Virus record (IMG/VR): IMGVR_UViG_3300025781_000011 | Span: 1,174 to 65,173 of that record | Reading direction: 5' to 3' (one strand) | Source: a virus | Lineage: Duplodnaviria; Caudoviricetes | DNA length: 64,000 bases | Part shown: piece by piece, positions 3,476 through 63,879 of the stretch | Numbering within the stretch: the stretch's first letter is position 1 | Layout: each line of letters begins with the position of its first letter | Notes under the pieces: model-generated | What the model was told of the DNA's origin: nothing | What the model saw: the letters and a program-made list of their open reading frames with translations, nothing else | Databases searched by the model: none | Program-made: the position numbers and the translations under genes

Positions 3476-4669
3476 ATGGAAAATAAAGATCTAATAAGAA
3501 AGTCACTTGATATTATCAACGAGTCTATGCTAGAAGATGGTAAAGAATGGAAGCGTACAAAAGCTCAACAAGATTTTGATCATGACCTAGACGGTGTTCC
3601 GCATGATCCAGAACATGATGACGAGGATCCAGATGCTGACCTAAAGCATAAAGAACGCAAGTACGACAGCGACGAAGAAGAAGATTTCGATGAGTCTGTT
3701 GAGGACGGTGACGAAGACGATGACGATTTAGAAGCTAGCGGATTTCCAAAAGATCCAAAGTACTATGACGAAAAAGGTCGTTATAAGTGGATGGAACCAG
3801 AAGATTTAGATCGTGATGAGGAAGAAGATCGCGAACACGACGACGAAGAGGATTTAGAAGAGGACGATGTCAAGGAAGATGCACCAAAAGCAAAATCTGC
3901 ACCAAAAGCTGATTCCGCTGGTACCAGTTTCCCAGGCATGGGTGAAGGTATTTACGAAGGCGACGAACTTGATGAAGGTATAAACATCACACTCGACGGT
4001 CCGGAAGCTGACGAGTTTGTTGCTAGATTAATGCAACTATCTGGTCAACCTGCTCCTGTTATGCCACATGATGCTCCAATTCAAGCAGTACCTGTGGATG
4101 TAGCTCCAGTTGCACCTGATATGGATGGTGCACCTGCTCCTGACATGGACGGACCGGTTGCACAAGCAGTTGATCAACCAGAAGTTGATGCTGACCACTT
4201 TGTAGCAGACGACAGCGGAACATGTGAAGTATGTCATATGCCAGAATCAATGTGCGAATGCCCAATGACTACACAAACATCGGGTCCATTATTAGGACAT
4301 GACGGTGTTACGATGGAAGAACATGCTGAATATGATCACGGACACTGTGAAGTCGACGATGAGGGTAAAGAAGTAGATCCAGAAACTTACATGTATAAGA
4401 TACCTACCCCTGCACAGAAAATGGTCAAGGGCATGATGGGCGACAATCCAATGGTTGAAGAATCAATGGAACGTTACAATAGAATCGTAAATGATTATGT
4501 AAAATTCCTAGGCGAAAGCGACATACCAAATGAAGATGGTGTAGCAAGTCCGTTAACAGCGGCTGATCGTCAAGAATTTGATAAGGATCCGCATGCAGGC
4601 CAAGAACCAAAAACAGACGGCAGCATGAGTCCAATGAGTCAAATTGATAGACAGGATGTAATGAAATAA
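3476..4669 (+). CDS. Highly acidic hypothetical protein (possible prohead core/scaffold-type)
   Basis: 397 aa with long D/E tracts; GAGG RBS. Confidence 0.6.
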   Translation: MENKDLIRKSLDIINESMLEDGKEWKRTKAQQDFDHDLDGVPHDPEHDDEDPDADLKHKERKYDSDEEEDFDESVEDGDEDDDDLEASGFPKDPKYYDEKGRYKWMEPEDLDRDEEEDREHDDEEDLEEDDVKEDAPKAKSAPKADSAGTSFPGMGEGIYEGDELDEGINITLDGPEADEFVARLMQLSGQPAPVMPHDAPIQAVPVDVAPVAPDMDGAPAPDMDGPVAQAVDQPEVDADHFVADDSGTCEVCHMPESMCECPMTTQTSGPLLGHDGVTMEEHAEYDHGHCEVDDEGKEVDPETYMYKIPTPAQKMVKGMMGDNPMVEESMERYNRIVNDYVKFLGESDIPNEDGVASPLTAADRQEFDKDPHAGQEPKTDGSMSPMSQIDRQDVMK

Positions 4670-4914
4670 TGATCATACGCCATAAACAATTGGTAACTAT
4701 TGATATATTTTATTTTAGAACTGATTATACATCAATAGTACAAGAATTTGTTTGGCAGACAGAAGATGTAGTTCCTGAACTATATCGTACACATAAATTT
4801 TTGAACTACTGGCATCAGAATATAGATGCCATAGTTCAAGAAGTGATTTTAAGTGTAAATGATAGGAAATACGGATCATATCGATCAGTTGACCATTTTC
4901 TACAGCTAAATTAA
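4669..4914 (+). CDS. Usg-like protein
   Basis: LVTIDIFYFRTDY.SIVQEFVWQTED..PEL...HKFL.YW..NID matches the alphaproteobacterial Usg family pattern as recalled. Confidence 0.7.
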   Translation: MIIRHKQLVTIDIFYFRTDYTSIVQEFVWQTEDVVPELYRTHKFLNYWHQNIDAIVQEVILSVNDRKYGSYRSVDHFLQLN

Positions 4915-4917
4915 TAT

Positions 4918-6513
4918 ATGAGCAAGTCTGATATTGATTTCACGTTAGTTAAACCAGCTAACCAAAAGACCACATACACACCTCATCAAATACGAGAAAT
5001 AAAAAAGTGTATGAGCGATCCACTATACTTCATGCAACAATACATGTGGATACAACATCCTACTCAAGGTAAAATACCATTCGAAGCATATCAATATCAA
5101 AAGAACCTAATAGAATGCTATTGGAAATACAAGGAAGTTATAGCACTACTTCCTCGTCAAAGTGGAAAGACTACGACTGCGGCAGGTTACTTATTATGGT
5201 ATACTATGTTTAATGACGACGTAACAGTGTTGATTGCTGCTAACAAATTCCGTGCTGCTACAGAAATTATGGATCGTATCAAGTTCGCATATGAAGAATT
5301 GCCCAACTGGTTACGTGCAGGCTCTGCAACATATAATGTGCAGGACATTAAGTTTGACAATGGGTCGAGAATCAAAGCCACAACTACTACACCAGATTCT
5401 GGACGTGGTATGTCTATTTCACTATTATACTTGGACGAGTTTGCGTTCGTTAAGCCTCGTATTGCAGAAGAATTTTGGACTGCTATGAGTCCCACACTTG
5501 CAACAGGTGGTAAATGTATTATTACATCTACCCCTAATAGTGATGAAGATAAGTTTGCTGAAATTTGGGTTGGTGCTAACAAGACAATAGATGATTGGGG
5601 CAATGATATACCAAATGGATTGGGTATAAACGGATTTAAAGCATTTACATCACACTATTCGGATGTTCCTGGTAGAGATGAAGAATGGGCTACAAGAGAA
5701 CGTAATAAGATAGGGGCAGATAAGTTCGACCGAGAGTACGGGTGTCAATTCTTAACTGCTGATGAAACACTTATTAATGCTGTAACATTGTTAAAGCTAC
5801 AGGGTGTTGACCCCATATATAAAACCAACGAAATACGTTGGTATGATCAACTAAAACCCAATATGACTTATCTAGTGGCATTAGATCCCAGTGCAGGTGT
5901 AGGTAAGGATCCTGCTGCTATTGAAGTGTTTAGTTTACCAGAAATGAAACAAGTAGCAGAGTGGACACACAATAGAACCAGTATACCTAATCAAGTAAAG
6001 ACTGTGCAGAACATTGTGAATTTTATCTACAGTGAATTAAAAAAGATGCCCGAGCACCGAGGCGATCCGGACATATACTTTACACTTGAAAATAACAGTT
6101 GGGGCGAGGCTGCATTATTAACCATAACAGAAATAGGCGAAGAACGCTTCAATGGTACAATGTTACATGAACAACGTGTTAGAGGACAAGGTCGTCCGCG
6201 ACGCGGTCTTAATACCAATACACGATCCAAAGCACAAGCCTGCACCAAGTTAAAAAGCCTAATTGAAGCAGAAAAAATGAAAATATTCAGTAGACCACTA
6301 GTACGACAACTTAAATTCTTTGTGAGTAAAGGTGAAGGCTTTGCTGCTAAACCTGGTGAGAATGACGATTGTGTAATGGCTACTATGCTCTGTGTGAGAA
6401 TGATGCAAATGGTTCAAAATTGGGATGACAGAGTCGGTGACCTACTGCGAGACGATTTTGGTGACGATTATGATCACGAAGAACCAATGCCAATGAGCGT
6501 GATCATCAACTAA
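4918..6513 (+). CDS. terL: Terminase large subunit (T4 gp17-like)
   Basis: Walker A PRQSGKTT, Walker B LLYLDEFAF, TSTPN motif, nuclease ALDPSAGVGKD and DDCVMA. Confidence 0.95.
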   Translation: MSKSDIDFTLVKPANQKTTYTPHQIREIKKCMSDPLYFMQQYMWIQHPTQGKIPFEAYQYQKNLIECYWKYKEVIALLPRQSGKTTTAAGYLLWYTMFNDDVTVLIAANKFRAATEIMDRIKFAYEELPNWLRAGSATYNVQDIKFDNGSRIKATTTTPDSGRGMSISLLYLDEFAFVKPRIAEEFWTAMSPTLATGGKCIITSTPNSDEDKFAEIWVGANKTIDDWGNDIPNGLGINGFKAFTSHYSDVPGRDEEWATRERNKIGADKFDREYGCQFLTADETLINAVTLLKLQGVDPIYKTNEIRWYDQLKPNMTYLVALDPSAGVGKDPAAIEVFSLPEMKQVAEWTHNRTSIPNQVKTVQNIVNFIYSELKKMPEHRGDPDIYFTLENNSWGEAALLTITEIGEERFNGTMLHEQRVRGQGRPRRGLNTNTRSKAQACTKLKSLIEAEKMKIFSRPLVRQLKFFVSKGEGFAAKPGENDDCVMATMLCVRMMQMVQNWDDRVGDLLRDDFGDDYDHEEPMPMSVIIN

Positions 6514-51433: not shown

Positions 51434-52446
51434 TATCTAAACCATTTCAAGGTTTACGTACATTTTGTAAAACATCCGACGATACAACAAAACGTTTTGC
51501 AGTTATAGGATTACCTAGCGATACTGCTACATCATATAGACCGGGTGCAAGATTTGCACCTGCTGCTATACGAGAATCAAGCATGATGCTAACGGATGGG
51601 TATCACCCTTATTTCAATGTCAACATTCGAGATCATACAGTGGATCTCGGCGATGCTGACATAACTGTCGGTAATACATTGAAAATGTTAGAACAAGTTG
51701 AAACAGTTACAAATAATGTATTAAATTGGAACAAGCATACAGTATTTCTGGGCGGTGATCACACAGTTACCATTGGAATACTACGTGCTATGAACAAGCG
51801 ATATGGTAAGATAGCTGTTGTACATTTTGATGCACACTGTGATACATGGCGTACAAATTTTGATGAACCTGTTGGCCACGGAACTTGGTTGTATAATGCT
51901 ATCACAGAAGAACTGGTTGATCCCACAAAGATTATTAGCATCGGAATACGAAGTCCTTCCGATAGTAAGTCCAGAAACTTTCTAGATCACCATGGTGGTA
52001 CTACATTTACTGCTAGATATGCACAGACTAACTTAATGGCCGTGATTTCAAACACAATTAAAATTATTGACCATACTCCGGTTTATCTTACATTCGATAT
52101 TGATGCACTAGATCCTGCATATGCACCCGGTACCGGAACACCAGAAATTGGTGGACTATCCAGCATGTGGGTGTTAGAATGCTTGGAATATTTGGCTGGA
52201 TTAAATTGGATAGGTATGGATCTAGTAGAGGTTTCACCTCCGTACGATCATGCTGAAATAACCAGTTTAGCTGCTGCTACCATTTGTTGGACTTATCTCA
52301 GCATGGTAATAGCCAAAAACCTACAACAATCAACAGAAATCGACGATGTACACGACTGTGGTGCTGATGTAGATGACAATACAGATTTCCGTCCAGTTGA
52401 AAAACCCGCTGTTACAAGACCAACAGGACCAACAGGTCCAAGTTGA
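51430..52446 (+). CDS. speB: Agmatinase (ureohydrolase family)
   Basis: RPGARFAP.AIR, GGDH, FDAHCD, FDID.LDPA.APGTGTP..GG, DLVEVSP.YD. Confidence 0.9.
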   Translation: MISKPFQGLRTFCKTSDDTTKRFAVIGLPSDTATSYRPGARFAPAAIRESSMMLTDGYHPYFNVNIRDHTVDLGDADITVGNTLKMLEQVETVTNNVLNWNKHTVFLGGDHTVTIGILRAMNKRYGKIAVVHFDAHCDTWRTNFDEPVGHGTWLYNAITEELVDPTKIISIGIRSPSDSKSRNFLDHHGGTTFTARYAQTNLMAVISNTIKIIDHTPVYLTFDIDALDPAYAPGTGTPEIGGLSSMWVLECLEYLAGLNWIGMDLVEVSPPYDHAEITSLAAATICWTYLSMVIAKNLQQSTEIDDVHDCGADVDDNTDFRPVEKPAVTRPTGPTGPS

Positions 52447-52477
52447 CAACTTAGATATTTGAAGTAATAGTTAAACA

Positions 52478-52605
52478 GCCGGATACAGATATCCGGGACC
52501 TTCGCAAAGATACAATTCCGGAGGACTGAACAATTTATAGGGTTGATCTCCTATAATTCAGTCTGTGACGGTAAGTATCTTTGCAGAAGGCGATTCTGAG
52601 GGTCC
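52478..52605 (+). ncRNA. Unassigned structured RNA or leader (long imperfect rod hairpin)
   Basis: Nested helices CCTTC/GAAGG, GCAAAGATAC/GTATCTTTGC, GACTGAA/TTCAGTC, TTATAGG/CCTATAA; TTGACA promoter at 52443. Confidence 0.55.
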
Positions 52606-52608
52606 AAA

Positions 52609-52797
52609 ATGCAGAACGAAATTCGCGATCAAAATGCACGTGATATTAATGCATTAATCAAATATGTCATGTGGTCTAAAGATAAAATTGCTGGTGGTGT
52701 CAGACAAGAACTAGCAATAGAAGCACTGTCTCGTATTGTGGATTATCCCATATCATTGATGAGATCCATTTCTGGCAAAGAAGACAGCGTTGATTGA
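52609..52797 (+). CDS. Hypothetical protein
   Basis: 62 aa with GAGG RBS. Confidence 0.55.
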   Translation: MQNEIRDQNARDINALIKYVMWSKDKIAGGVRQELAIEALSRIVDYPISLMRSISGKEDSVD

Positions 52798-52829
52798 CAA
52801 TTTAAAATAAGACACTATAAATAAATTAC

Positions 52830-53148
52830 CATTGTTGATAGCAATGTAATAAAACGTTATGGACCCCGGGGCAGTACCGGGCTGATCTACCATAGTAACA
52901 TTGTTTCCTAGGCTTAGCCCACGAAATCGCCCTTTGCGGTTGGCAATGTTACTATGATGGGCCAGACATAGGATTAACAAGCGAATAAAGATTGAAGTAG
53001 ATGGTCCGGCGAAAGCTTGGTTAATGCAATAAAACTAATAAATGCTAACGCATTTGCAAATGACAATACACCTGTTGTAGAGATGAAAATCGCTGCTTAA
53101 GGTTTAAGGTCTGCGGTCAGGGGAGAACCGTATTAAACAATCTCCCTA
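52830..53148 (+). ncRNA. ssrA: Circularly permuted (two-piece) tmRNA
   Basis: T-arm CCGG-GGCAGTA-CCGG then CTGATCT-A-CCA (to 52892); intervening hairpin; coding piece starts GGGCCAG (52959) giving G3-U70; tag ORF ANAFANDNTPVVEMKIAA* at 53044-53100. Confidence 0.88.
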
Positions 53149-53234
53149 TTACTTTAAAAATCACAACAAGAGTTGACTTTTTTTGAACTATAAGTAAATA
53201 TTGACGAACACTATTTGTAGTTGGAGTAACGTCC

Positions 53235-53429
53235 ATGTTGACAGCAAGAAATATAATAATAAAAGAAGTCATAGAATTTGTGGTAATCGAAGGCGTTATG
53301 TTCCTGGTTAAACGTGTGTTCAAAATCAACAAAAGACGTAAGACTGTTACAGCAATATTGAAGATAATTTCCAACATCGGCGTTATGGTTGCATCACGAT
53401 ATGTGACTGCTGCTGTTGCAATTATCTAA
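53235..53429 (+). CDS. Small hydrophobic/basic protein
   Basis: 64 aa with GGAG RBS; two hydrophobic segments flanking KRRK. Confidence 0.55.
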   Translation: MLTARNIIIKEVIEFVVIEGVMFLVKRVFKINKRRKTVTAILKIISNIGVMVASRYVTAAVAII

Positions 53430-53470
53430 CCAACGGTTGCAATTTTAAACTTATCTATTATAATGATCTT

Positions 53471-53675
53471 GTGGGTCTGGAGGAAAGACGAGTCACAGAT
53501 CCTAATCGTAGAGGAACAGCACGACCCAAATTTAGATCACCCGTAACAGGGGAGTAGCAGGTGCCAGGTAGGACAACTGGCTGAAAGATCTAATATTGGG
53601 AATCTGCGGTAGCCGGTGGACTACACTAGTAAGAGTCATTAGGACTGCGGATTTTAAACAGGTTACGATACCCAC
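53471..53675 (+). ncRNA. Unassigned ~205-nt highly structured RNA
   Basis: TTGCAA-16-TATAAT promoter puts +1 near 53471; terminal pairing GTGGGT/ACCCAC; several internal helices; GC-richer than its surroundings; no ORF. Confidence 0.7.
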
Positions 53676-53684
53676 ACTTTAAAC

Positions 53685-53719
53685 TTGACAGTTAATGCCA
53701 CTGAATGGTACTATAAATA
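53685..53719 (+). promoter_or_regulatory. Dual sigma70/late promoter
   Basis: TTGACA at 53685 and TACTAT/TATAAATA at 53709-53719. Confidence 0.6.
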
Positions 53720-53897
53720 ACATTGCTTGGTATTAACCAGACAAACAGTTGATATCAAGTGATGTTTGATGAAACTTATTGTAGCGTAAATTATTTTTGT
53801 ATTATTCAATCAGCCACGTGTATGCGTTGAATTGATTGAAATTTAACTTAATTATTTTTGTAAAAACTCGTAATATATTAACCTTATTAACTCGAAA

Positions 53898-53937
53898 GAA
53901 GCGATGTTGTACAGTTACAGCATCGCTTCAATCTTTT
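53898..53937 (+). terminator. Terminator-like hairpin
   Basis: GAAGCGATGTTGTA-cagt-TACAGCATCGCTTC then ATCTTTT. Confidence 0.7.
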
Positions 53938-54015
53938 CAGATGACAAATAAATTAATCGAAGTTAAAGTACTATATTGTACAAGTTACTGATAAAAGGTA
54001 TAACTAACAACTGTC

Positions 54016-55902
54016 ATGTCAGAAGAAATTATCAAACTCACAGATTACCAACATCATCGCAAACGTACAGAAATGTACCTGGGCAGTAGAACTGCTCATA
54101 CACAAAACATAGTACATTGGAATGGAACCAAATTACTGCCAATGGATCTAACCTGGACACCTGCTGTTTATTGTGCATTTAGAGAGCTACTAGATAATGC
54201 ACTGGACGAGGTAATCGGTCACAAGAAAGGTTCCAAGATTGACATAACCTTTGAACCAAAAGAAATGGTGTTCTCAGTTACTGATGATGGTCGCGGTATT
54301 CCAATTGACTGGGATGAGAATGAACGTATACACAAAGCTACACTGGCACTAACACAAGCCCGAGCTGGTCGTAACTTTGGTGATCGTCAAGAAGTACGTG
54401 GTACCAACGGCATTGGTGCAAGCACGGTTGTAAACTGCTCTGAATGGTTTCATTTAGAAATACATCGTGACGGCAAGAAGTTTATACAAGAGTTCAAAGA
54501 AGGATCCGACCTATTTCCAGAATTAATAATCAATGAACCAAAGATTACCAAGAACGGTGGTCATAGCGGAACACAAGTTAAATTTAAATTAAGCAAGACT
54601 GTGTTTAAAAATGCCAAGTTACCTTTGGCATTTATGCAAGCACGTATACATGAAATAGCCGCTAACCATCCCAGGGTTAAATTTACGTTCAATGGCGAAC
54701 GTATTATGGTCAAGCACTCAATTGAACGCACATTCTTTAATGACAAAGAAGTTATTAAACTAAGCGTCGATGATAAGAACTTTAATAGTGCGTTCTATCT
54801 TGTGAGTAACTTTGCCAAAGACGGCGAGTATATACATACCACTGTAAATGATATTCCTGCGTTCAATGGCGGTACTCATATTGATACATTCAAGAGAATG
54901 TTCTATAGCGGGCTTATTCGAGCACTAGAACGTGAAAGCAAACGTCGAGGATTAACTCCTAATCGGTCTGACATCAGCGAGGGGTTGTTAATTTATAACG
55001 TGACGACTATGTTTTCTCCAGACTTTGACTCACAATCTAAATCCAGACTCATTAATGAGAATGTTGACAGTTATATCAAAGCATACTTCGATAATGAGGA
55101 AGTGTTTAAGGACATTATCAAAAAGCACAAGCCGTGGATTGACGAAATCTACGCAAGGTGTGCAGCTAGAACACAAAAACGAGATGACGCAGACTTGGCC
55201 AAGATTGGTCGCAAGCTCATGCGTAACAAAGTACCAAAATTACTAGATGCCAATGGTAAAGACAGATCCACTTGTATTCTTATTATTACAGAAGGTGATT
55301 CTGCTAAAGGAATGATAAGTGCTGTACGTGATCCAGAAGTACATGGCGCTTTACCCCTACGTGGTAAGATTCTAAACGTACGTGGCGAAGCACCCAAGGA
55401 CATTGTAGAAAATCAAATCATACAGGATCTAATGACCAGTATTGGTTGTGTGTTAGGCCAACGAGCTGAACGCAAAGATCTACGCTACGGTAAAGTATAC
55501 TTGGCAGCGGATCAGGATCCAGACGGTGCTAACATTACTGCATTGTTGATCAACTTCTTTTATTTGTATTGGCCGGAGTTGTTTGATCCCAAACAGGAAC
55601 CCTACTTTTATGCATTTCAAACTCCTTTTATTATTCAGGAGAAGGCCAAGAAACGTCACTACTGGTATGCTCACAACTATCACGAGTATGATCCTAAGGA
55701 TTGGAAAAACTGTCCAAAGCCGACCAGAGCCAAGGGCCTGGGTAGTCTTGAAGAAGAAGATTGGATACACAGTTTAAAGGTACCTCAGTTGATTCCTATC
55801 ACAGATGATGGTAAATTAGGTGAGGCACTGGATTTGATATTTAATTCAGCAAGGGCTGATAATCGCAAGGAGTGGATTAGCTTAGATAATAAAATTAATT
55901 AA
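54016..55902 (+). CDS. Type IIA topoisomerase ATPase/TOPRIM subunit (gp39+60 / GyrB-like)
   Basis: ELLDNALDE, DDGRGIP, GTNGIG, EGDSA, PLRGKILN, DQDPDG. Confidence 0.95.
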   Translation: MSEEIIKLTDYQHHRKRTEMYLGSRTAHTQNIVHWNGTKLLPMDLTWTPAVYCAFRELLDNALDEVIGHKKGSKIDITFEPKEMVFSVTDDGRGIPIDWDENERIHKATLALTQARAGRNFGDRQEVRGTNGIGASTVVNCSEWFHLEIHRDGKKFIQEFKEGSDLFPELIINEPKITKNGGHSGTQVKFKLSKTVFKNAKLPLAFMQARIHEIAANHPRVKFTFNGERIMVKHSIERTFFNDKEVIKLSVDDKNFNSAFYLVSNFAKDGEYIHTTVNDIPAFNGGTHIDTFKRMFYSGLIRALERESKRRGLTPNRSDISEGLLIYNVTTMFSPDFDSQSKSRLINENVDSYIKAYFDNEEVFKDIIKKHKPWIDEIYARCAARTQKRDDADLAKIGRKLMRNKVPKLLDANGKDRSTCILIITEGDSAKGMISAVRDPEVHGALPLRGKILNVRGEAPKDIVENQIIQDLMTSIGCVLGQRAERKDLRYGKVYLAADQDPDGANITALLINFFYLYWPELFDPKQEPYFYAFQTPFIIQEKAKKRHYWYAHNYHEYDPKDWKNCPKPTRAKGLGSLEEEDWIHSLKVPQLIPITDDGKLGEALDLIFNSARADNRKEWISLDNKIN

Positions 55903-55961
55903 AAATAAAATTTATCGCAGTGCAAATATATATTATAATTATACTAGCGATAAGGAAAATC

Positions 55962-56846
55962 ATGAAACAAGTTTATAAAATTACAAATATTAAGAATAAC
56001 AAGTCTTACATTGGAATAGTCATAGCAAGAGATAAAGATTATCTTAAACGATTTCAGGAGCATATGACCGGTAAAGGCGGAGTTTATTTATGGAATGAGT
56101 TAAAATCAGGTAGCGCAACTGTTGAAGATTTTGTAGTCGAGTTGTTAGAAGAAGGCAATCAGGATGATTTATATTTTAAAACTCAGGAGGAATTTTACAT
56201 AGAATATTTAGGAACATTATGGCCCAATGGTTATAACGGTAATAAAGGCAATTATATTGTAAAAACACCTGAGATATTACAAAAGGCTCGCAAAACTCGG
56301 TTTCAAAATCATCAAGCAGGACTACATAAGTCAACTGGACGATCAGGTATGGCAATTTATAGATATCCAGACGGTAGCATTAAAAAATTATCTATAAATC
56401 ATCCAGATGTTCTAAATAATACAGTAAAACATATTAATTATAATCCTGAATGTAAAACACGATTACTAGAACAAGAGATAGCAGAACAAAAAGAAAGAAA
56501 CAATGGTTTAACAGATAAACAAGTTGCATGGAAGGTAAAAATAGCTAAGTTGGCTAAACAATATCCGAATTTAGAATCCTGGCAACACGGCAGAGAGAAA
56601 TTTAAAGAACGAATGGCAATGAAAGATTTTACTGAAAAAGAAAAAGAACTGTACTATGAACGACGCTCTAAAATTGTAAAAGCAAATTGGGACTCTATGA
56701 CACCTGAACAGCGACTTGAAAAATGTGGTCCTGGATTGCGGGCTCGAAATGCTCGTAAGGTATGCCCACACTGCGGAATAGAAACAAATTTAGGAAATTA
56801 TACAAGATGGCACGGAGATAATTGTAAAAAGGCATCAGCAACATGA
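55962..56846 (+). CDS. GIY-YIG homing endonuclease
   Basis: VYKITN..N.KSYIG...RF.EH...PNGYN; C-terminal CPHCG...TRWHGDNCK; AT-rich insert between the two topo genes. Confidence 0.85.
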   Translation: MKQVYKITNIKNNKSYIGIVIARDKDYLKRFQEHMTGKGGVYLWNELKSGSATVEDFVVELLEEGNQDDLYFKTQEEFYIEYLGTLWPNGYNGNKGNYIVKTPEILQKARKTRFQNHQAGLHKSTGRSGMAIYRYPDGSIKKLSINHPDVLNNTVKHINYNPECKTRLLEQEIAEQKERNNGLTDKQVAWKVKIAKLAKQYPNLESWQHGREKFKERMAMKDFTEKEKELYYERRSKIVKANWDSMTPEQRLEKCGPGLRARNARKVCPHCGIETNLGNYTRWHGDNCKKASAT

Positions 56847-60685: not shown

Positions 60686-60724
60686 TAGCCGGGTCATTAT
60701 GGTGGTAGATCCGGCTATTTTTTT
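60686..60724 (+). terminator. Rho-independent terminator
   Basis: TAGCCGGGTC...GATCCGGCTA then T7. Confidence 0.8.
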
Positions 60725-60726
60725 GA

Positions 60727-61052
60727 AATCAATGACTTATAACACCCTTGTTTACATACAGATTTCGATTGACAACCCGGTTAATTGTGCTATTATAAGC
60801 ACATAACAAAGGAGTATACGATGTCAAAGGCGATGGATAAGTTCCTAGATAGAGCAGCACCCCAATTCACCCAAGCTCTCAAGAGCAACGACCCCGCCCA
60901 GCGTGACGCTGCGATAGATGCTCTGCTTGTAGAGTTCCTGAATGTAAACAGCAGTAAGCGTAAACCTGCTGCACCTAAACGCAAAGTCCGCAGAGGTATC
61001 GGGTCCTATTGACAATACCCACAATGGTGCTATAGTAAACTTATAAACAAAG
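60727..61052 (+). repeat. Direct repeat, copy 1 (promoter + 63-aa gene + next promoter)
   Basis: Highly similar to 63165-63482. Confidence 0.85.
60821..61012 (+). CDS. Small early protein, paralog A
   Basis: AAGGAG RBS; MSKAMDKFLDRAAPQ...RRGIGSY. Confidence 0.8.
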   Translation: MSKAMDKFLDRAAPQFTQALKSNDPAQRDAAIDALLVEFLNVNSSKRKPAAPKRKVRRGIGSY

Positions 61053-61061
61053 GAGGCTACT

Positions 61062-61295
61062 ATGTCAAATGTATACGGAGTGTGGTACCGAGCCGGGCAC
61101 TTTGACGAGTTGCTGGGTTTATTTACTACCATCGATCGTGCCCGTCGTGCTCGTATCCGCTATCTAGAGGCTGATGAAGATCCCGACAATCTCTATATCA
61201 CTCGCATGGCATTAGATAAGGCTTGTGAGTTCCCATTTGACATCAACGGTGACCTGGTTGACAATGTGGCAAAGTCTGCTAAAGTAACAGCATAA
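61062..61295 (+). CDS. Small early protein
   Basis: Own promoter and AGGAGG RBS. Confidence 0.75.
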   Translation: MSNVYGVWYRAGHFDELLGLFTTIDRARRARIRYLEADEDPDNLYITRMALDKACEFPFDINGDLVDNVAKSAKVTA

Positions 61296-61311
61296 ACAAA
61301 GGAGCAATGAC

Positions 61312-61971
61312 ATGGCTAAACGTAAAGCTGCTGAAGTTCCTATGATTGATGCGAACCTTGTGTGGGCTGCGGCGTGTGCAGCTCTGCGTATTAACGGCAA
61401 GTACCTTAAAGAGCCAGAAATTACCGAAGATACAAACACTGTTACGTACCCTAATAAGGTAATAATGCGCGATATCCTGTTTGCTCCAGAATCCATTACG
61501 AATGAAGATCGCACTCAAGCAGAAGTTGTGCGCACCTACTGGCGCAACAAGATGATGGAAGTGCTGTCAGGTACTGCTAATCAGTTTACCACACAGGCTA
61601 TAGAATTAGCCAACCGTACAGAGTTTGCAGCCAATGATTGGTTGGGACTTGCTACAGTTGCATTCCTTCCAGAAGGCTATGTTCGCGGACAGAAGCGCGA
61701 CGAGCAGCGAGTTAAGAAGCAAGAAGCCACTTTTGGTAGCAACCATTTTGGCAAAATTGGTGAAAAGGTTGTCGGCAACGCCACTGTAATTGAAAGCCGT
61801 TACAGTGAGAAGTGGGGTACCCACTATGTTACTGCACAGTTTGGTACCAATGTAATGTTCTTTGCATATCGCAATAAGCTGGAGGATGGTGTTACAATAG
61901 CGTTTAAAGGCACAATCAAAGCACACCGCGATGATGGTATTACGCAACTCAACCGTGTGCGGATCTTGTAA
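61312..61971 (+). CDS. Early protein with a C-terminal OB-fold-like domain
   Basis: S.HFG.IGEK...KGTIKAH....TQLNRV. Confidence 0.7.
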   Translation: MAKRKAAEVPMIDANLVWAAACAALRINGKYLKEPEITEDTNTVTYPNKVIMRDILFAPESITNEDRTQAEVVRTYWRNKMMEVLSGTANQFTTQAIELANRTEFAANDWLGLATVAFLPEGYVRGQKRDEQRVKKQEATFGSNHFGKIGEKVVGNATVIESRYSEKWGTHYVTAQFGTNVMFFAYRNKLEDGVTIAFKGTIKAHRDDGITQLNRVRIL

Positions 61972-61983
61972 CAGGAGAGTATA

Positions 61984-62217
61984 ATGAAAGCATTCTTAAC
62001 CATTAAGATCATGGGTGTCTTATCGGCAGTAGTTGGGCCCATGCCCGACTGGAATGCTTGTACAGCATACCTACCTGACTTTGAAAAACGTGCAGATGCA
62101 GTGTTTACAAAACCTGATTATTTGGCTAAACTTCAAGCACAGTATCCGGGTATCAAACGAGAAAACATTGTGCATGAGTGTGTAGAGAGTGATACAAAAC
62201 CAGTATTCAACAAGTGA
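61984..62217 (+). CDS. Hypothetical protein
   Basis: AGGAG RBS. Confidence 0.65.
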   Translation: MKAFLTIKIMGVLSAVVGPMPDWNACTAYLPDFEKRADAVFTKPDYLAKLQAQYPGIKRENIVHECVESDTKPVFNK

Positions 62218-62229
62218 TAGGGGTTGTGA

Positions 62230-62487
62230 ATGTCTGAAGTTGATAGTAAAGTAGATGTCTGGCCGTTTGTTGTTGAAAACAAACTACCAGATGAAGATTA
62301 TCAATCTAAAATGGATTTGCCCATGGGCGATCTTGCTACTGCGTTATGGGGCATAGATAGTGGTCCGGAAGGTTTAGAGGATTGGCAGATTGTGGAAATA
62401 GCAGCAGAAAAGATCAAACTGTTACAGAAAATGATCATAGCTACAGGATTTAAAGAAGATTTGCTCAAAGCAATCATGGAGGAATAA
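62230..62487 (+). CDS. Hypothetical protein
   Basis: 85 aa within the operon. Confidence 0.65.
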   Translation: MSEVDSKVDVWPFVVENKLPDEDYQSKMDLPMGDLATALWGIDSGPEGLEDWQIVEIAAEKIKLLQKMIIATGFKEDLLKAIMEE

Positions 62488-62491
62488 TAAA

Positions 62492-62737
62492 ATGATAAAT
62501 TGGTTATTTAATAAACTCATGCCGGTCCCTAAGGAACCGTTAGTCAATGGCAAGACACCTGAAGAATTAGAACAAGAACACCTCAACCGAATAGAGCAAC
62601 AGATTCTCGCTGAAGAAGAAGTTCAAAACATGAGATTTATAATTGCCTTGAGTAAAGAATTATTCCCCGGCGACAACTCAGCTATCGATCGGGTAGAAAA
62701 AGCTGTAGAGGCAGCAGTTAAAGAAATTGAAGAATAA
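62492..62737 (+). CDS. Hypothetical protein
   Basis: GGAGG RBS. Confidence 0.65.
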   Translation: MINWLFNKLMPVPKEPLVNGKTPEELEQEHLNRIEQQILAEEEVQNMRFIIALSKELFPGDNSAIDRVEKAVEAAVKEIEE

Positions 62738-62808
62738 CTTGACAACTGCACCAAACTCAGCTAAATTTGTGCGATGCAATAAATATCCAAAAACAGGGAG
62801 ATTTAGCT

Positions 62809-63021
62809 GTGACAACTGCCCTTGATCAATATCTTCAAGATTGGAATGAAGCCTGTGCATATGCTTATGAGTGTGGTCCAGATCTGGGATTTTTAGTACC
62901 ACCAGAGCCATGGACGACTCTTGCAGTAGTTGCAGGAGTGTGCTACTATGTTTGGAGACATAACGAGCGGAGTATTCAAAATGTCAGAGCTGACAGAGCA
63001 GAGAGTCCAGACGCTGATTGA
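62809..63021 (+). CDS. Small membrane-anchored hypothetical protein
   Basis: One TM segment; probable GTG start after GGGAG. Confidence 0.5.
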   Translation: MTTALDQYLQDWNEACAYAYECGPDLGFLVPPEPWTTLAVVAGVCYYVWRHNERSIQNVRADRAESPDAD

Positions 63022-63166
63022 TCTTGCTGTAGAATACGCTACCAAACGCAATCTAAGTCCAGTCTCGTATGTAAACGGTATGCTAGATGTAAACACGCTT
63101 GGCTCAGCAGATGCTGGTCAGATAGTAGAAACATTGATAAAATACCACAAAGAATGGCTAAAATAA
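62981..63166 (+). CDS. Hypothetical protein
   Basis: GGAG RBS before MSELTEQ. Confidence 0.55.
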   Translation: MSELTEQRVQTLIDLAVEYATKRNLSPVSYVNGMLDVNTLGSADAGQIVETLIKYHKEWLK

Positions 63167-63482
63167 TCAACGACTTACAACACCAAAAATAACGGTTGAC
63201 TAGTCAGCATAAGATGCTATTATATACTCATAAACAAAGGAGAGTTAAATGTCTTCTAAGGCAATGGATAAGTTCCTAGATAGAGCAGCACCCCAATTAG
63301 CCCAGGTTCTCAAGACCAACGACCCTGCCCAGCGTGATGCTATGATGGATGCCCTGCTTGTAGAGTTTCTAAATGTAAACATCAGCAAGCGTAAACCTGC
63401 TGCTCCTAAACGCAAAGTCCGCAGAGGTATTGGGTCCTATTGACAACACCCGCAAAGGTGCTATTATAAACTCATAAACAGG
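63165..63482 (+). repeat. Direct repeat, copy 2
   Basis: Highly similar to 60727-61052. Confidence 0.85.
63249..63443 (+). CDS. Small early protein, paralog B
   Basis: Near-identical to 60821-61012. Confidence 0.8.
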   Translation: MSSKAMDKFLDRAAPQLAQVLKTNDPAQRDAMMDALLVEFLNVNISKRKPAAPKRKVRRGIGSY

Positions 63483-63492
63483 GGAGCATGAT

Positions 63493-63879
63493 ATGACTGA
63501 CTATTCAGACCTTGTTGAGAGATTGCGTCGTGACGGTATTGCTGCCCGAGACACATTGAAATGTGTGGAAATGGCGCCTACGGTTGACCCAGAAGATGCG
63601 CTTAAAGCCGCTGATGCTATTGAGGCACAAGCAAAGCGGATTGAGGAACTAGAGGCTTCTATTGATAAAAACGACGAATGGGTAAAGTGGTTTATTGAGA
63701 AAACTGACGCCCGCATTGCGGAACTTGAAGCGGCGCTGAAACCGTTTGCTGATTATTGGGAACCGGGCACGGGACTTCACTGCCAGAATGTGGATACCAA
63801 AGAAGTGGGTGCTCGTGCTGCCGCTGATGTGTTCAAGCGGTATGGATTCACAGCCTATGCTGGCTCGAGACTGGACTAA
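63493..63879 (+). CDS. Coiled-coil hypothetical protein of a type common in temperate phages
   Basis: DLVERLR...AADAIE....RIAELEAALKPFA; GC-richer than the rest of the window. Confidence 0.7.
   Translation: MTDYSDLVERLRRDGIAARDTLKCVEMAPTVDPEDALKAADAIEAQAKRIEELEASIDKNDEWVKWFIEKTDARIAELEAALKPFADYWEPGTGLHCQNVDTKEVGARAAADVFKRYGFTAYAGSRLD

What the first reader, a model, noticed from the sequence alone, without database searches (positions are those of the whole stretch)
53471..53675. Unassigned ~205-nt multi-domain structured RNA with possible pseudoknots
Seen: the predicted +1 coincides with the first base of a closing helix GTGGGT/ACCCAC. Other pairings are ATCGTA/TACGAT, a 5' hairpin GGGTCTG/CAGATCC, a branched domain CCCAA.TTAGATC/GATCTAA.TTGGG enclosing GCCAG/CTGGC and a CTGAAAG T-loop-like segment, and a 10-bp AATCTGCGGT/ACTGCGGATT helix. 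TCCTAAT/ATTAGGA and GACT/AGTC offer long-range or alternative pairings. Purine-rich linkers include GAGGAAAG and GAGGAACAG. It matches no class I can confirm. Inference: a candidate new ribozyme or tRNA/protein-binding RNA next to the tmRNA.
Basis: partly seen in the sequence, partly recalled or inferred. Interest (0 to 1): 0.85.

Follow-up and report, generated by a model that had tools for sequence, protein, structure and literature searches.

The report
Orphan structured non-coding island in jumbo phage
A 205-base non-coding, GC-rich stretch behind a good promoter in a jumbo-phage fragment folds into a stable 129-base core, but it matches no known RNA family and has no relative in any collection searched, so it stays an unproven small-RNA candidate of modest interest.

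Summary
The window is a 15%-complete fragment of a jumbo phage related to Agrobacterium phage Atu_ph07 and Sinorhizobium phage Phosso.

For an RNA gene:
- The element has no open frame and sits behind TTGCAA-16-TATAAT.
- It is 49% GC between 25-38% GC flanks.
- Its 129-nt core (53525-53653) folds better than 199 of 200 shuffles and better than all but 2 of 221 GC-matched windows of the same genome.

Against:
- The whole 205 nt is ordinary for this genome: 26 of 116 GC-matched windows fold as well.
- There is no Rfam match.
- I found no homologue in 41 syntenic relatives, two complete related genomes, IMG/VR, JGI metagenomes, GTDB genomes or 151 alphaproteobacterial genomes, so covariation cannot be tested.
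- The closest relative lacks the element. It sits in a hypervariable slot between a clade-conserved permuted tmRNA gene and the topoisomerase gene.

Two motifs recall RNase P RNA, but covariance-model, profile and shuffle tests do not support membership.

Verdict: a plausible lineage-specific phage small RNA. A ribozyme role is unsupported, and interest is low to moderate.

The parts
53437..53464 (+). sigma-70-type promoter-like site, TTGCAA-16 nt-TATAAT, 10 of 12; predicted +1 near 53471
   Evidence: read directly. Sites of this quality occur 61 times in both strands of the window.
53471..53675 (+). candidate non-coding RNA: 205 nt, 48.8% GC, 60% purine, no open frame of 30 codons or more on the + strand
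   Evidence: Single copy in the 65,173-base record.
53473..53502 (+). 5' hairpin with GGAGGAAAG in its loop; competes with the terminal helix 53471-76/53670-75
   Evidence: pair probability about 0.6-0.8; alone z -1.53, 20 of 200 shuffles as good
53525..53600 (+). three-way-junction domain: a 5+7-bp stem enclosing hairpins CCC/GGG and GCCAG/CTGGC, with junction strands GAGTAGCAGGT and TGAAA
   Evidence: pair probabilities 0.89-1.0 for the stem; z -3.43, 0 of 200 shuffles as good
53601..53653 (+). long hairpin closed by a 10-bp helix with two G-U pairs, which makes it specific to the + strand
   Evidence: z -2.27, 4 of 200; G-U pairs at 135/179 and 138/176
53505..53510 (+). 5' strand of the long-range helix ATCGTA/TACGAT (partner 53664-53669). 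With GTGGGT/ACCCAC it would make a 12-bp closing stem with a continuous 3' strand.
   Evidence: probability about 0.55
52790..53150 (+). permuted (two-piece, alpha-type) tmRNA gene with tag reading frame ANDNTPVVEMKIAA*
   Evidence: RF01849 61.9 bits, RF04321 65 bits; tag; conserved upstream of topoisomerase in 17 of 19 related loci scanned
53235..53429 (+). 64-codon ORF (hydrophobic product) between the tmRNA and the candidate; no Pfam family, no relative found
53685..53714 (+). second promoter-like site TTGACA-18-TACTAT. Homology with the closest relative L002 resumes here, about 5-10 nt after the candidate's 3' end.
53898..53929 (+). 14-bp terminator-like hairpin, identical in L002, 86 nt before the topoisomerase start codon
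54016..55902 (+). DNA topoisomerase II large subunit (GyrB-like), the downstream gene

Best explanation
The stretch is a lineage-specific, promoter-driven, non-coding transcription unit: an orphan phage small RNA gene.

It lies in a hypervariable slot between the clade-conserved tmRNA gene and the topoisomerase II gene. Other relatives carry small accessory ORFs in that slot.

Inferred mechanism, none of it shown: host sigma-70 RNA polymerase starts at about 53471. The transcript folds co-transcriptionally into a 5' hairpin, a three-way-junction domain (53525-53600) and a directly abutting long hairpin (53601-53653). The ends can then be closed by ATCGTA/TACGAT plus GTGGGT/ACCCAC. No terminator follows, so the 3' end would come from processing at the closing stem or from read-through.

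The most likely role for such a compact RNA with paired ends is a stable trans-acting RNA that binds a protein or an RNA of the host or phage. Its exposed purine-rich GGA/GAGGA loops are the obvious contact sites.

Nothing indicates catalysis.
For: - No open frame of 30 codons or more on the + strand, and all frames are broken.
- A 10/12 promoter with a perfect -10 box places +1 at the foot of the terminal helix.
- GC is 0.49 against 0.25-0.38 in the flanking intergenic DNA and 0.376 for the window. Purines are 60% on the + strand.
- The core 53525-53653 has z -3.55 (1 of 200 shuffles). It ranks 20 of 1486 among the genome's own windows, and 2 of 221 GC-matched windows fold as well.
- Four G-U pairs, two of them in the 10-bp helix, make the fold specific to the + strand, which matches the promoter direction.
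- The 3' end of the closing helix (53675) lies within about 5-10 nt of the point where homology with relative L002 resumes. So the variable segment that L002 lacks ends just after the RNA.
- It sits in an RNA-gene neighbourhood, with the tmRNA at 52790-53150.
- GGA occurs 9 times against 5.2 +/- 1.9 expected; 81 of 2000 shuffles reach 9, which is only marginal.
Against: - No homologue was found, so there is no covariation and no evidence of purifying selection.
  - None by nhmmer in the 41 topoisomerase-syntenic IMG/VR loci. blastn gave only a 28-nt chance match (E 0.06) in 4 of them, far from the syntenic place.
  - None in 4 related records including 2 complete genomes.
  - None in Phosso, Atu_ph07 and 3 further records.
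  - None in the INPHARED phage records by blastn.
  - Only chance seed hits in IMG/VR, JGI metagenomes and GTDB genomes.
  - 1 of 151 alphaproteobacterial genomes at E 0.9.
- The closest relative (88% topoisomerase identity) has an unrelated small ORF at this place.
- The full 205 nt folds no better than the genome background.
- Other intergenic stretches of the same phage fold far more strikingly: z -6.21 at 52440-52620 and z -4.76 at 4665-4920.
- There is no terminator, and promoters of this quality are frequent.
Confidence: 0.4

Rival explanations
1. Non-functional filler. The stretch is a remnant of horizontally acquired or decaying DNA in a hypervariable accessory slot. Its promoter-like site and fold are fortuitous and it produces no RNA with a function.
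For: - The tmRNA-topoisomerase spacer differs in length (about 260-2250 nt) and content among 17 related loci. None of the 17 carries the motifs searched there (GGAGGAAAG, GTGCCAGG, GAGGAACAG).
- The element and the adjacent orf64 have no relatives anywhere searched.
- The whole-element fold is average for this genome.
- 10/12 promoter-like sites occur about once per 2 kb.
Against: - The core fold is an outlier: 2 of 221 GC-matched windows fold as well.
- A decayed gene should leave protein similarity. tblastn of 4525 open frames from the relatives gave at most 23.9 bits over 20 residues on the element.
- GC is higher than both the coding and non-coding averages of this phage, which argues against relaxed drift toward AT.
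Confidence: 0.3
2. Cis-acting 5' leader. Transcription from 53437-53464 runs through the structure and on toward the topoisomerase operon. The fold then acts as a 5' stabiliser, a processing site or an attenuator partner of the terminator-like hairpin at 53898-53929.
For: - There is no terminator between 53675 and the 14-bp hairpin at 53898-53929.
- The element has the same orientation as the downstream topoisomerase genes.
- In the fold of 53471-53945 the two core domains persist inside a longer structure with z -4.23.
Against: - The topoisomerase gene has its own promoter at 53685-53714. Both that promoter and the terminator-like hairpin are conserved in L002, which lacks the element, so topoisomerase expression does not need it.
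- 340 nt of AT-rich sequence separate it from the start codon.
- No riboswitch or leader family matches.
Confidence: 0.12
3. A drastically reduced derivative of bacterial RNase P RNA, carried next to an RNase P substrate gene (the tmRNA). It would act either as a minimal catalytic RNA or as a decoy for the host RNase P protein.
For: - GGAGGAAAG (53479-87) and GGTGCCAGGTA (53560-70) both occur, in this order, in a true RNase P RNA fetched here. That locus, L162, scores 327.9 bits to RF00010.
- Further short resemblances (TGAAAG, TGCGGTA, ACAGG..TTA) follow in the same order as in the four RNase P RNAs aligned. This is my own reading.
- GCCAG/CTGGC forms a 5-bp hairpin at the P8-like motif.
Against: - RF00010 and RF02357 (RNaseP-T) give no match at E<=10 in the record. 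No RNase P family appears in the permissive Rfam scans.
- A profile of 33 RNase P RNAs finds nothing at the locus even at E<=1000.
- The colinear k-mer chain score is only z 1.9 (12 of 300 shuffles as high) for k=6, and z 1.5 (21 of 300) for k=7.
- I could find no complementary strand for a P4 helix opposite GGAGGAAAGAC, by inspection.
- The spacing between motifs is wholly different: 72 nt against about 18.
- No RNase P RNA is found in 4 related phage records.
Confidence: 0.05
4. A DNA-level element: a replication origin of the promoter-plus-unwinding-region type. A G-rich structured transcript would form a persistent R-loop ahead of the AT-rich 53700-53900 stretch and prime replication. This is recalled from T4 oriF/oriG and ColE1 RNA II and was not tested here.
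For: - A promoter is followed by a purine-rich, G-over-C segment (GC skew up to +0.33 at 53550-53649). After that come about 220 nt of 25-29% GC.
- The location is upstream of the topoisomerase genes.
Against: - There is no inflection of cumulative GC skew at the locus; it rises steadily across the window.
- It is absent from the closest relative and from complete related genomes. An origin should be conserved.
- No repeats or iterons were seen.
Confidence: 0.05

Closest known systems
Bacterial RNase P RNA, type A (Rfam RF00010)
   Same: It shares two of the family's conserved words, GGAGGAAAG and GGTGCCAGGTA, in the same order. Both were seen in a true member fetched here. It also has a 5-bp hairpin at the second word, paired 5' and 3' ends, and a position beside a gene whose RNA is an RNase P substrate (that last point is recalled).
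   Different: It is 205 nt against about 350-480 nt for the members fetched. There is no covariance-model or profile match. No P4 pairing partner was found, the motif spacing is different, and overall similarity is not above shuffles.
Phage-encoded small stable RNAs of unknown function clustered with tRNA/tmRNA genes (for example T4 RNA C and RNA D; recalled, not fetched)
   Same: It is a short non-coding gene with its own promoter in an RNA-gene neighbourhood of a large T4-like or jumbo phage, it is dispensable in relatives, and no function is assigned.
   Different: There is no sequence relation to any deposited phage genome (no blastn match in 50,697 records). Expression and stability are unproven here.
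GGA-motif protein-sponge RNAs (CsrB/RsmZ type; recalled)
   Same: Several GGA/AGGA words lie in predicted loops or single strands: the 5' hairpin loop, the J41-54 junction, and the GUAGGACAA loop.
   Different: Enrichment is marginal: 9 against 5.2 expected, with 81 of 2000 shuffles as high. No Rfam CsrB/Rsm match was found. The host is unknown, and whether it has CsrA was not tested.
Permuted alpha-type tmRNA (RF01849 / RF04321), the neighbour
   Same: Same strand, a similar GC rise, and both are RNA genes in the same intergenic cluster.
   Different: The tmRNA is complete without the candidate; the model is matched end to end at 52790-53150. It is conserved in 17 of 19 related loci, whereas the candidate was found in none of the 41 syntenic loci.

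Membership tests
Any Rfam 15 family (4227 models) | Covariance-model score at or above the family's gathering score | tested here: not met
   the only matches in the window are two tmRNA models at 52790-53150. (E<=10, permissive filters): 4 and 1 matches. The one inside the element is RF01107 at 13.7 bits against a gathering score of 39; RF01104 (15.2 bits against 39) merely touches its 3' end on the minus strand.
RNase P RNA, bacterial type A (RF00010) / Pyrobaculum type T (RF02357) | Covariance-model match | tested here: not met
   0 matches at E<=10 in the 65,173-base record. The RF00010 control rang in 11 of 14 known genomes.
RNase P RNA, bacterial type A | Conserved CR-I word GAGGAAAG and the P8-region word GGTGCCAGGTA | tested here: met
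   Both are present at 53480-87 and 53560-70. The same words are seen in true RNase P RNA L162/L171.
RNase P RNA, bacterial type A | P4 pseudoknot: the CR-I strand paired with a CR-V strand (ACAGAA..CCGGCTTA in the members aligned) | tested here: not met
   Inspection found no complement of AAAGACG(AG) in the element. The best option is 4 weak pairs with TTTT at 53652-55, which overlaps the 10-bp helix. The CR-V word is absent.
RNase P RNA, bacterial type A | Overall sequence similarity to family members above chance | tested here: inconclusive
   nhmmer with a profile of 33 members gives no hit at the locus at E<=1000. The colinear k-mer chain gives z 1.9 (12 of 300 shuffles as high) and z 1.5 (21 of 300).
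tRNA / tmRNA | Cloverleaf or tRNA-like domain detected by ARAGORN or by Rfam tRNA/tmRNA models | tested here: not met
   ARAGORN finds 0 genes in the window; it also misses the permuted tmRNA; no tRNA or tmRNA model hit in 53150-54050.
Riboswitch / cis-regulatory leader | Aptamer directly upstream of a regulated ORF, with an expression platform (a terminator or a sequestered RBS) | tested here: not met
   The next ORF starts 340 nt downstream and has its own promoter (53685-53714), which is conserved in L002 without the element. No riboswitch model hit.
Conserved structured RNA (any new class) | Homologues with compensatory base changes | not testable with these tools
   No homologue was found. 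The searches used exact seeds and a single-sequence model, so divergent relatives can have been missed.
Expressed small RNA | A discrete transcript with defined ends | not testable with these tools

The most novel reading that the evidence does not exclude
The element is a functional, previously unseen class of compact structured RNA made early in infection by one lineage of freshwater-type jumbo phages. One possibility is an extremely reduced RNase P-derived RNA that keeps the CR-I and P8 words and acts on, or competes for, the machinery that matures the phage's own two-piece tmRNA. The other is a new protein-binding RNA with exposed GAGGA loops.
Probability: 0.07. Interest if true: 0.75.

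Novelty: new member of a known kind. Interest (0 to 1): 0.25.

Why it matters
If it is real, this would be one more lineage-specific small RNA of a jumbo phage, sitting beside a phage-borne tmRNA. Non-coding genes of jumbo phages are barely charted, so it would be useful to know that the variable accessory-gene slots of these phages can carry RNA genes as well as small ORFs.

The RNase P-like words would matter only if biochemistry showed binding or cleavage. A 205-nt phage RNase P relative would be remarkable, but the tests run here do not support it.

As it stands, the finding has one sequence, no conservation and no expression data. It cannot yet open any question to direct test.

Tried and rejected
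1. Known family. Rfam at gathering score and at E<=10 and ARAGORN found nothing for the element.

2. RNase P RNA. This was my own recalled lead from GGAGGAAAG and GGTGCCAGGTA.
- RF00010 and RF02357 on the record and RF00010 on 4 related records gave no match.
- I fetched RNase P RNAs: 4, and 40 of 41 alphaproteobacterial genomes, of which 30 became loci. I used 33 of these 34 loci and left out L189, because its genome G049 is flagged unpublished.
- The MAFFT alignment placed only the GGAGGAAAG block sensibly.
- nhmmer with the profile gave 4 weak hits in the window, none at the locus.
- The chain-of-k-mers test was marginal.
- Rejected as membership; kept as a 5% rival.

3. Homologues by synteny. 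There are 41 IMG/VR loci with the topoisomerase gene.
- nhmmer found none.
- blastn gave only a 28-nt, 85.7% match (E 0.06) to L029/L030/L031/L038, far from the syntenic place.
- The CM found none.

4. Homologues by seeds. All hits match only the seed itself, except L162, a true RNase P gene with an assembly duplication.
- IMG/VR: 62 hits; 14; 17; 1; 0; 5.
- JGI metagenomes: (14 hits).
- GTDB genomes: (17 hits).

5. orf64 as an anchor for synteny: 25 pattern hits, 0 relatives.

6. Decayed gene. The six-frame reading is broken in all frames. tblastn of 4525 frames from relatives gave at most 26.6 bits in the 867-nt region and at most 23.9 bits on the element.

7. Internal repeats or a DGR-type template: no second copy in the window.

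8. Retron, group I intron, tRNA with intron, Y RNA, SRP, 6S, and CsrB-type sponge were considered by inspection. The reasons against them:
- There is no reverse transcriptase, flanking exon or T-arm.
- There is no Rfam hit.
- GGA enrichment is only marginal.

9. Replication origin: no skew inflection.

10. Literature. Two searches were seen as listings only. None of the 15 papers listed contains 'RNase P RNA'. One paper, PMC10690425, was examined with 'find' only: its single 'tmRNA' occurrence is in the reference list, and 'RNase P', 'jumbo' and 'topoisomerase' do not occur. I make no claim that such an RNA is absent from print. Supplements were not opened.

Full report
**What the window is**

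The record behind the window is a 65,173-base IMG/VR virus contig, estimated 15% complete. The element occurs in it once.

The gene downstream of the finding (54016-55902) is a GyrB-like topoisomerase II large subunit (Pfam DNA_gyraseB, Toprim, HATPase_c). Its best named relatives are:
- Sinorhizobium phage Phosso: 55% identity
- Agrobacterium phage Atu_ph07: 51% identity
- then the large Escherichia jumbo phages (2288 records matched)

Nearby genes:
- Upstream: a Peptidase_M15_3 protein and an arginase-family protein.
- Downstream: a 308-codon ORF with no Pfam family, then the topoisomerase A-like subunit.

The only Rfam matches at gathering score in the 64 kb are two overlapping tmRNA models at 52790-53150 on the + strand (alpha_tmRNA 61.9 bits, tmRNA_permuted 65 bits). 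The tag frame reads ANDNTPVVEMKIAA*. ARAGORN reports nothing in the window.

**The observation**

- The stem of the three-way-junction domain (element positions 55-130) has pair probabilities of 0.89-1.0.
- The long hairpin (131-183) has 0.7-0.88.
- ATCGTA/TACGAT has about 0.55.
- The terminal GTGGGT/ACCCAC helix has only about 0.36, because it competes with the 5' hairpin (0.62).
- Forcing the terminal helix costs 0.8 kcal/mol (-58.6 against -59.4).

The promoter-like site TTGCAA-16-TATAAT at 53437-53464 scores 10 of 12 and puts +1 at about 53471. Sites of this quality are frequent, however: 61 on the two strands of the window.

The element has these further properties:
- 48.8% GC, against 37.6% for the window and 25-38% in the flanking non-coding DNA.
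- 60% purine on the + strand.
- No open frame of 30 codons or more on the + strand, and broken frames throughout.
- Four G-U pairs, two of them in the 10-bp helix, so the fold belongs to the + strand.

**Is the fold more than chance?**

Taken as a whole, barely.
- z is -2.06, with 4 of 200 shuffles as good. The minus strand does slightly better, z -2.61.
- Against all 205-nt windows of the same genome it is ordinary: -0.44 sd after GC regression, rank 509 of 1595.
- 26 of 116 GC-matched windows fold at least as well.

The 129-nt core 53525-53653 does stand out.
- z is -3.55, with 1 of 200 shuffles as good.
- It ranks 20 of 1486 windows, and 2 of 221 GC-matched windows fold as well.
- The three-way-junction domain alone has z -3.43 (0 of 200) and the long hairpin z -2.27. 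The 5' hairpin, at z -1.53, is not significant.

For scale, two other intergenic stretches of this phage fold more strikingly: 52440-52620 (z -6.21) and 4665-4920 (z -4.76).

**Known families**

Permissive Rfam scans gave only chance-level matches far below the gathering scores. These were E<=10 scans on 901 nt and on 221 nt.

I followed a lead of my own. GGAGGAAAG and GGTGCCAGGTA are conserved words of bacterial RNase P RNA. A gapped pattern scan of GTDB genomes confirmed this by accident: among 16 chance hits it returned one true RNase P gene, L162, which scores 327.9 bits to RF00010. The tests of membership nevertheless fail:
- RF00010 and RNaseP-T give no match at E<=10 in the record.
- A profile built from 33 RNase P RNAs finds nothing at the locus even at E<=1000. 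I left out one further locus, which comes from an unpublished genome.
- A colinear k-mer chain score is only z 1.9 (12 of 300 shuffles) or z 1.5 (21 of 300) above shuffles.
- I find no strand that could form the P4 helix.
- None of the 4 related phage records searched encodes an RNase P RNA.

The resemblance is real as two words in the right order. It is not shown to be homology.

**Relatives**

This is the weakest point of the finding.
- The 41 IMG/VR loci that carry the topoisomerase gene (26-88% identity) contain no homologue. nhmmer and a single-sequence covariance model found nothing, and blastn gave only a 28-nt chance match (E 0.06) in 4 loci far from the syntenic place.
- Four related records do not contain it either, including complete genomes of 452,799 and 518,643 bases.
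- Phosso, Atu_ph07 and three more contigs lack it.
- The 50,697 deposited phage records give no blastn match.
- Exact-seed scans gave only matches to the seed itself. The scans were of IMG/VR, JGI metagenomes and GTDB genomes. The hits were checked.
- 1 of 151 alphaproteobacterial genomes gave a covariance-model match, at E 0.9.

These searches can only find close relatives, because they use exact words of 16-18 bases or a one-sequence model. 'Not found' is therefore not 'absent'. It does mean that covariation cannot be assessed.

**Context**

The permuted tmRNA upstream of the topoisomerase gene is a clade feature: 17 of 19 loci scanned have it, and L005 and L006 do not. The spacer between the two genes is about 260 to 2250 nt long and carries different small ORFs in different relatives. 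None of the 17 spacers has the three motifs searched there (GGAGGAAAG, GTGCCAGG, GAGGAACAG).

In the closest relative, L002 (88% topoisomerase identity), the gene order is tmRNA, small ORFs, then the conserved TTGACA promoter, the terminator-like hairpin and the topoisomerase gene. Homology with the window resumes about 5-10 nt after the element's last base.

So the segment that holds orf64 and the promoter-plus-element, bounded on the right by the point where homology with L002 resumes, occupies an accessory slot. orf64 itself has no relatives and no Pfam family.

**Reading**

The best-supported reading is a lineage-specific, promoter-driven, non-coding gene for a compact RNA. Its ends can pair, and its 129-nt core is genuinely stable. 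I put this at about 0.4.

Shown:
- absence of coding potential
- the promoter pattern
- the composition island
- core stability
- the strand assignment
- the 3' boundary coinciding with the synteny break

Inferred:
- that it is transcribed
- that it is stable
- that it acts in trans, probably by binding a protein or an RNA through its exposed purine-rich loops

GGA is only marginally enriched: 9 against 5.2 expected, with 81 of 2000 shuffles as high.

The rivals are:
- non-functional filler in a variable slot (0.3)
- a dispensable 5' leader of a long transcript toward the topoisomerase genes (0.12)
- an RNase P-derived RNA (0.05)
- a promoter-type replication origin (0.05); the cumulative GC skew shows no inflection there

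Nothing supports a ribozyme.

**Limits**

No transcript evidence could therefore be sought.
- The literature was only skimmed. Searches were seen as listings, and one search gave one passage in one paper.
- Supplements were not opened.

**Verdict**

The description is accurate and the core fold is real. The RNA is plausible but unproven, no class can be assigned, and interest is low to moderate (0.25).

Noticed in passing
window 52440-52620 (+): A very stable long hairpin lies between the arginase-family gene and the 62-codon gene at 52609. MFE is -59.2 kcal/mol, z -6.21, and 0 of 200 shuffles fold as well. It begins just after a TTGACA-17-AATAGT promoter-like site at 52443. It is the strongest + strand fold outlier of the whole window in my scan.
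   Followed up: partly
window 52790-53150 (+) and loci L002-L040: A permuted alpha-type tmRNA gene (tag ANDNTPVVEMKIAA) lies upstream of the topoisomerase II gene. It is conserved in 17 of 19 related IMG/VR loci scanned. The spacer between the two genes is hypervariable. ARAGORN misses this tmRNA.
   Followed up: partly
window 4665-4920 (+): This 250-nt AT-rich intergenic stretch has several strong hairpins. z is -4.76, and 0 of 200 shuffles fold as well.
   Followed up: no
window 53719-53767 (+): A 19-bp imperfect hairpin lies right after the second promoter (53685-53714), at the predicted 5' end of the topoisomerase leader. The same shape was not recovered in L002.
   Followed up: partly
window 53898-53929 and L002: A 14-bp terminator-like hairpin 86 nt upstream of the topoisomerase start codon is identical in the window and in L002, while the sequence around it has diverged.
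   Followed up: no
window 55920-56846 (+): A 308-codon ORF with no Pfam match sits between the two topoisomerase subunit genes. Its N-terminus looks to me like a GIY-YIG homing-endonuclease motif; that is my own reading, not tested. In several relatives the topoisomerase match stops at about residue 428-442, which suggests split genes or insertions there.
   Followed up: no
L162 / L171 (GTDB gammaproteobacterial MAG): The RNase P RNA gene carries a tandem duplication of its first ~40 nt (GGAGGAAAG...GGTGCCAGGTA twice), probably an assembly artefact. This is why it matched my gapped pattern.
   Followed up: no
window 60700-63500 (+): There is a cluster of near-consensus TTGACA promoters at 60769, 61009, 61237, 61258, 62739, 63196 and 63440. 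They sit in a region of raised GC (44-46%) with short ORFs, which looks like an early-gene block.
   Followed up: no
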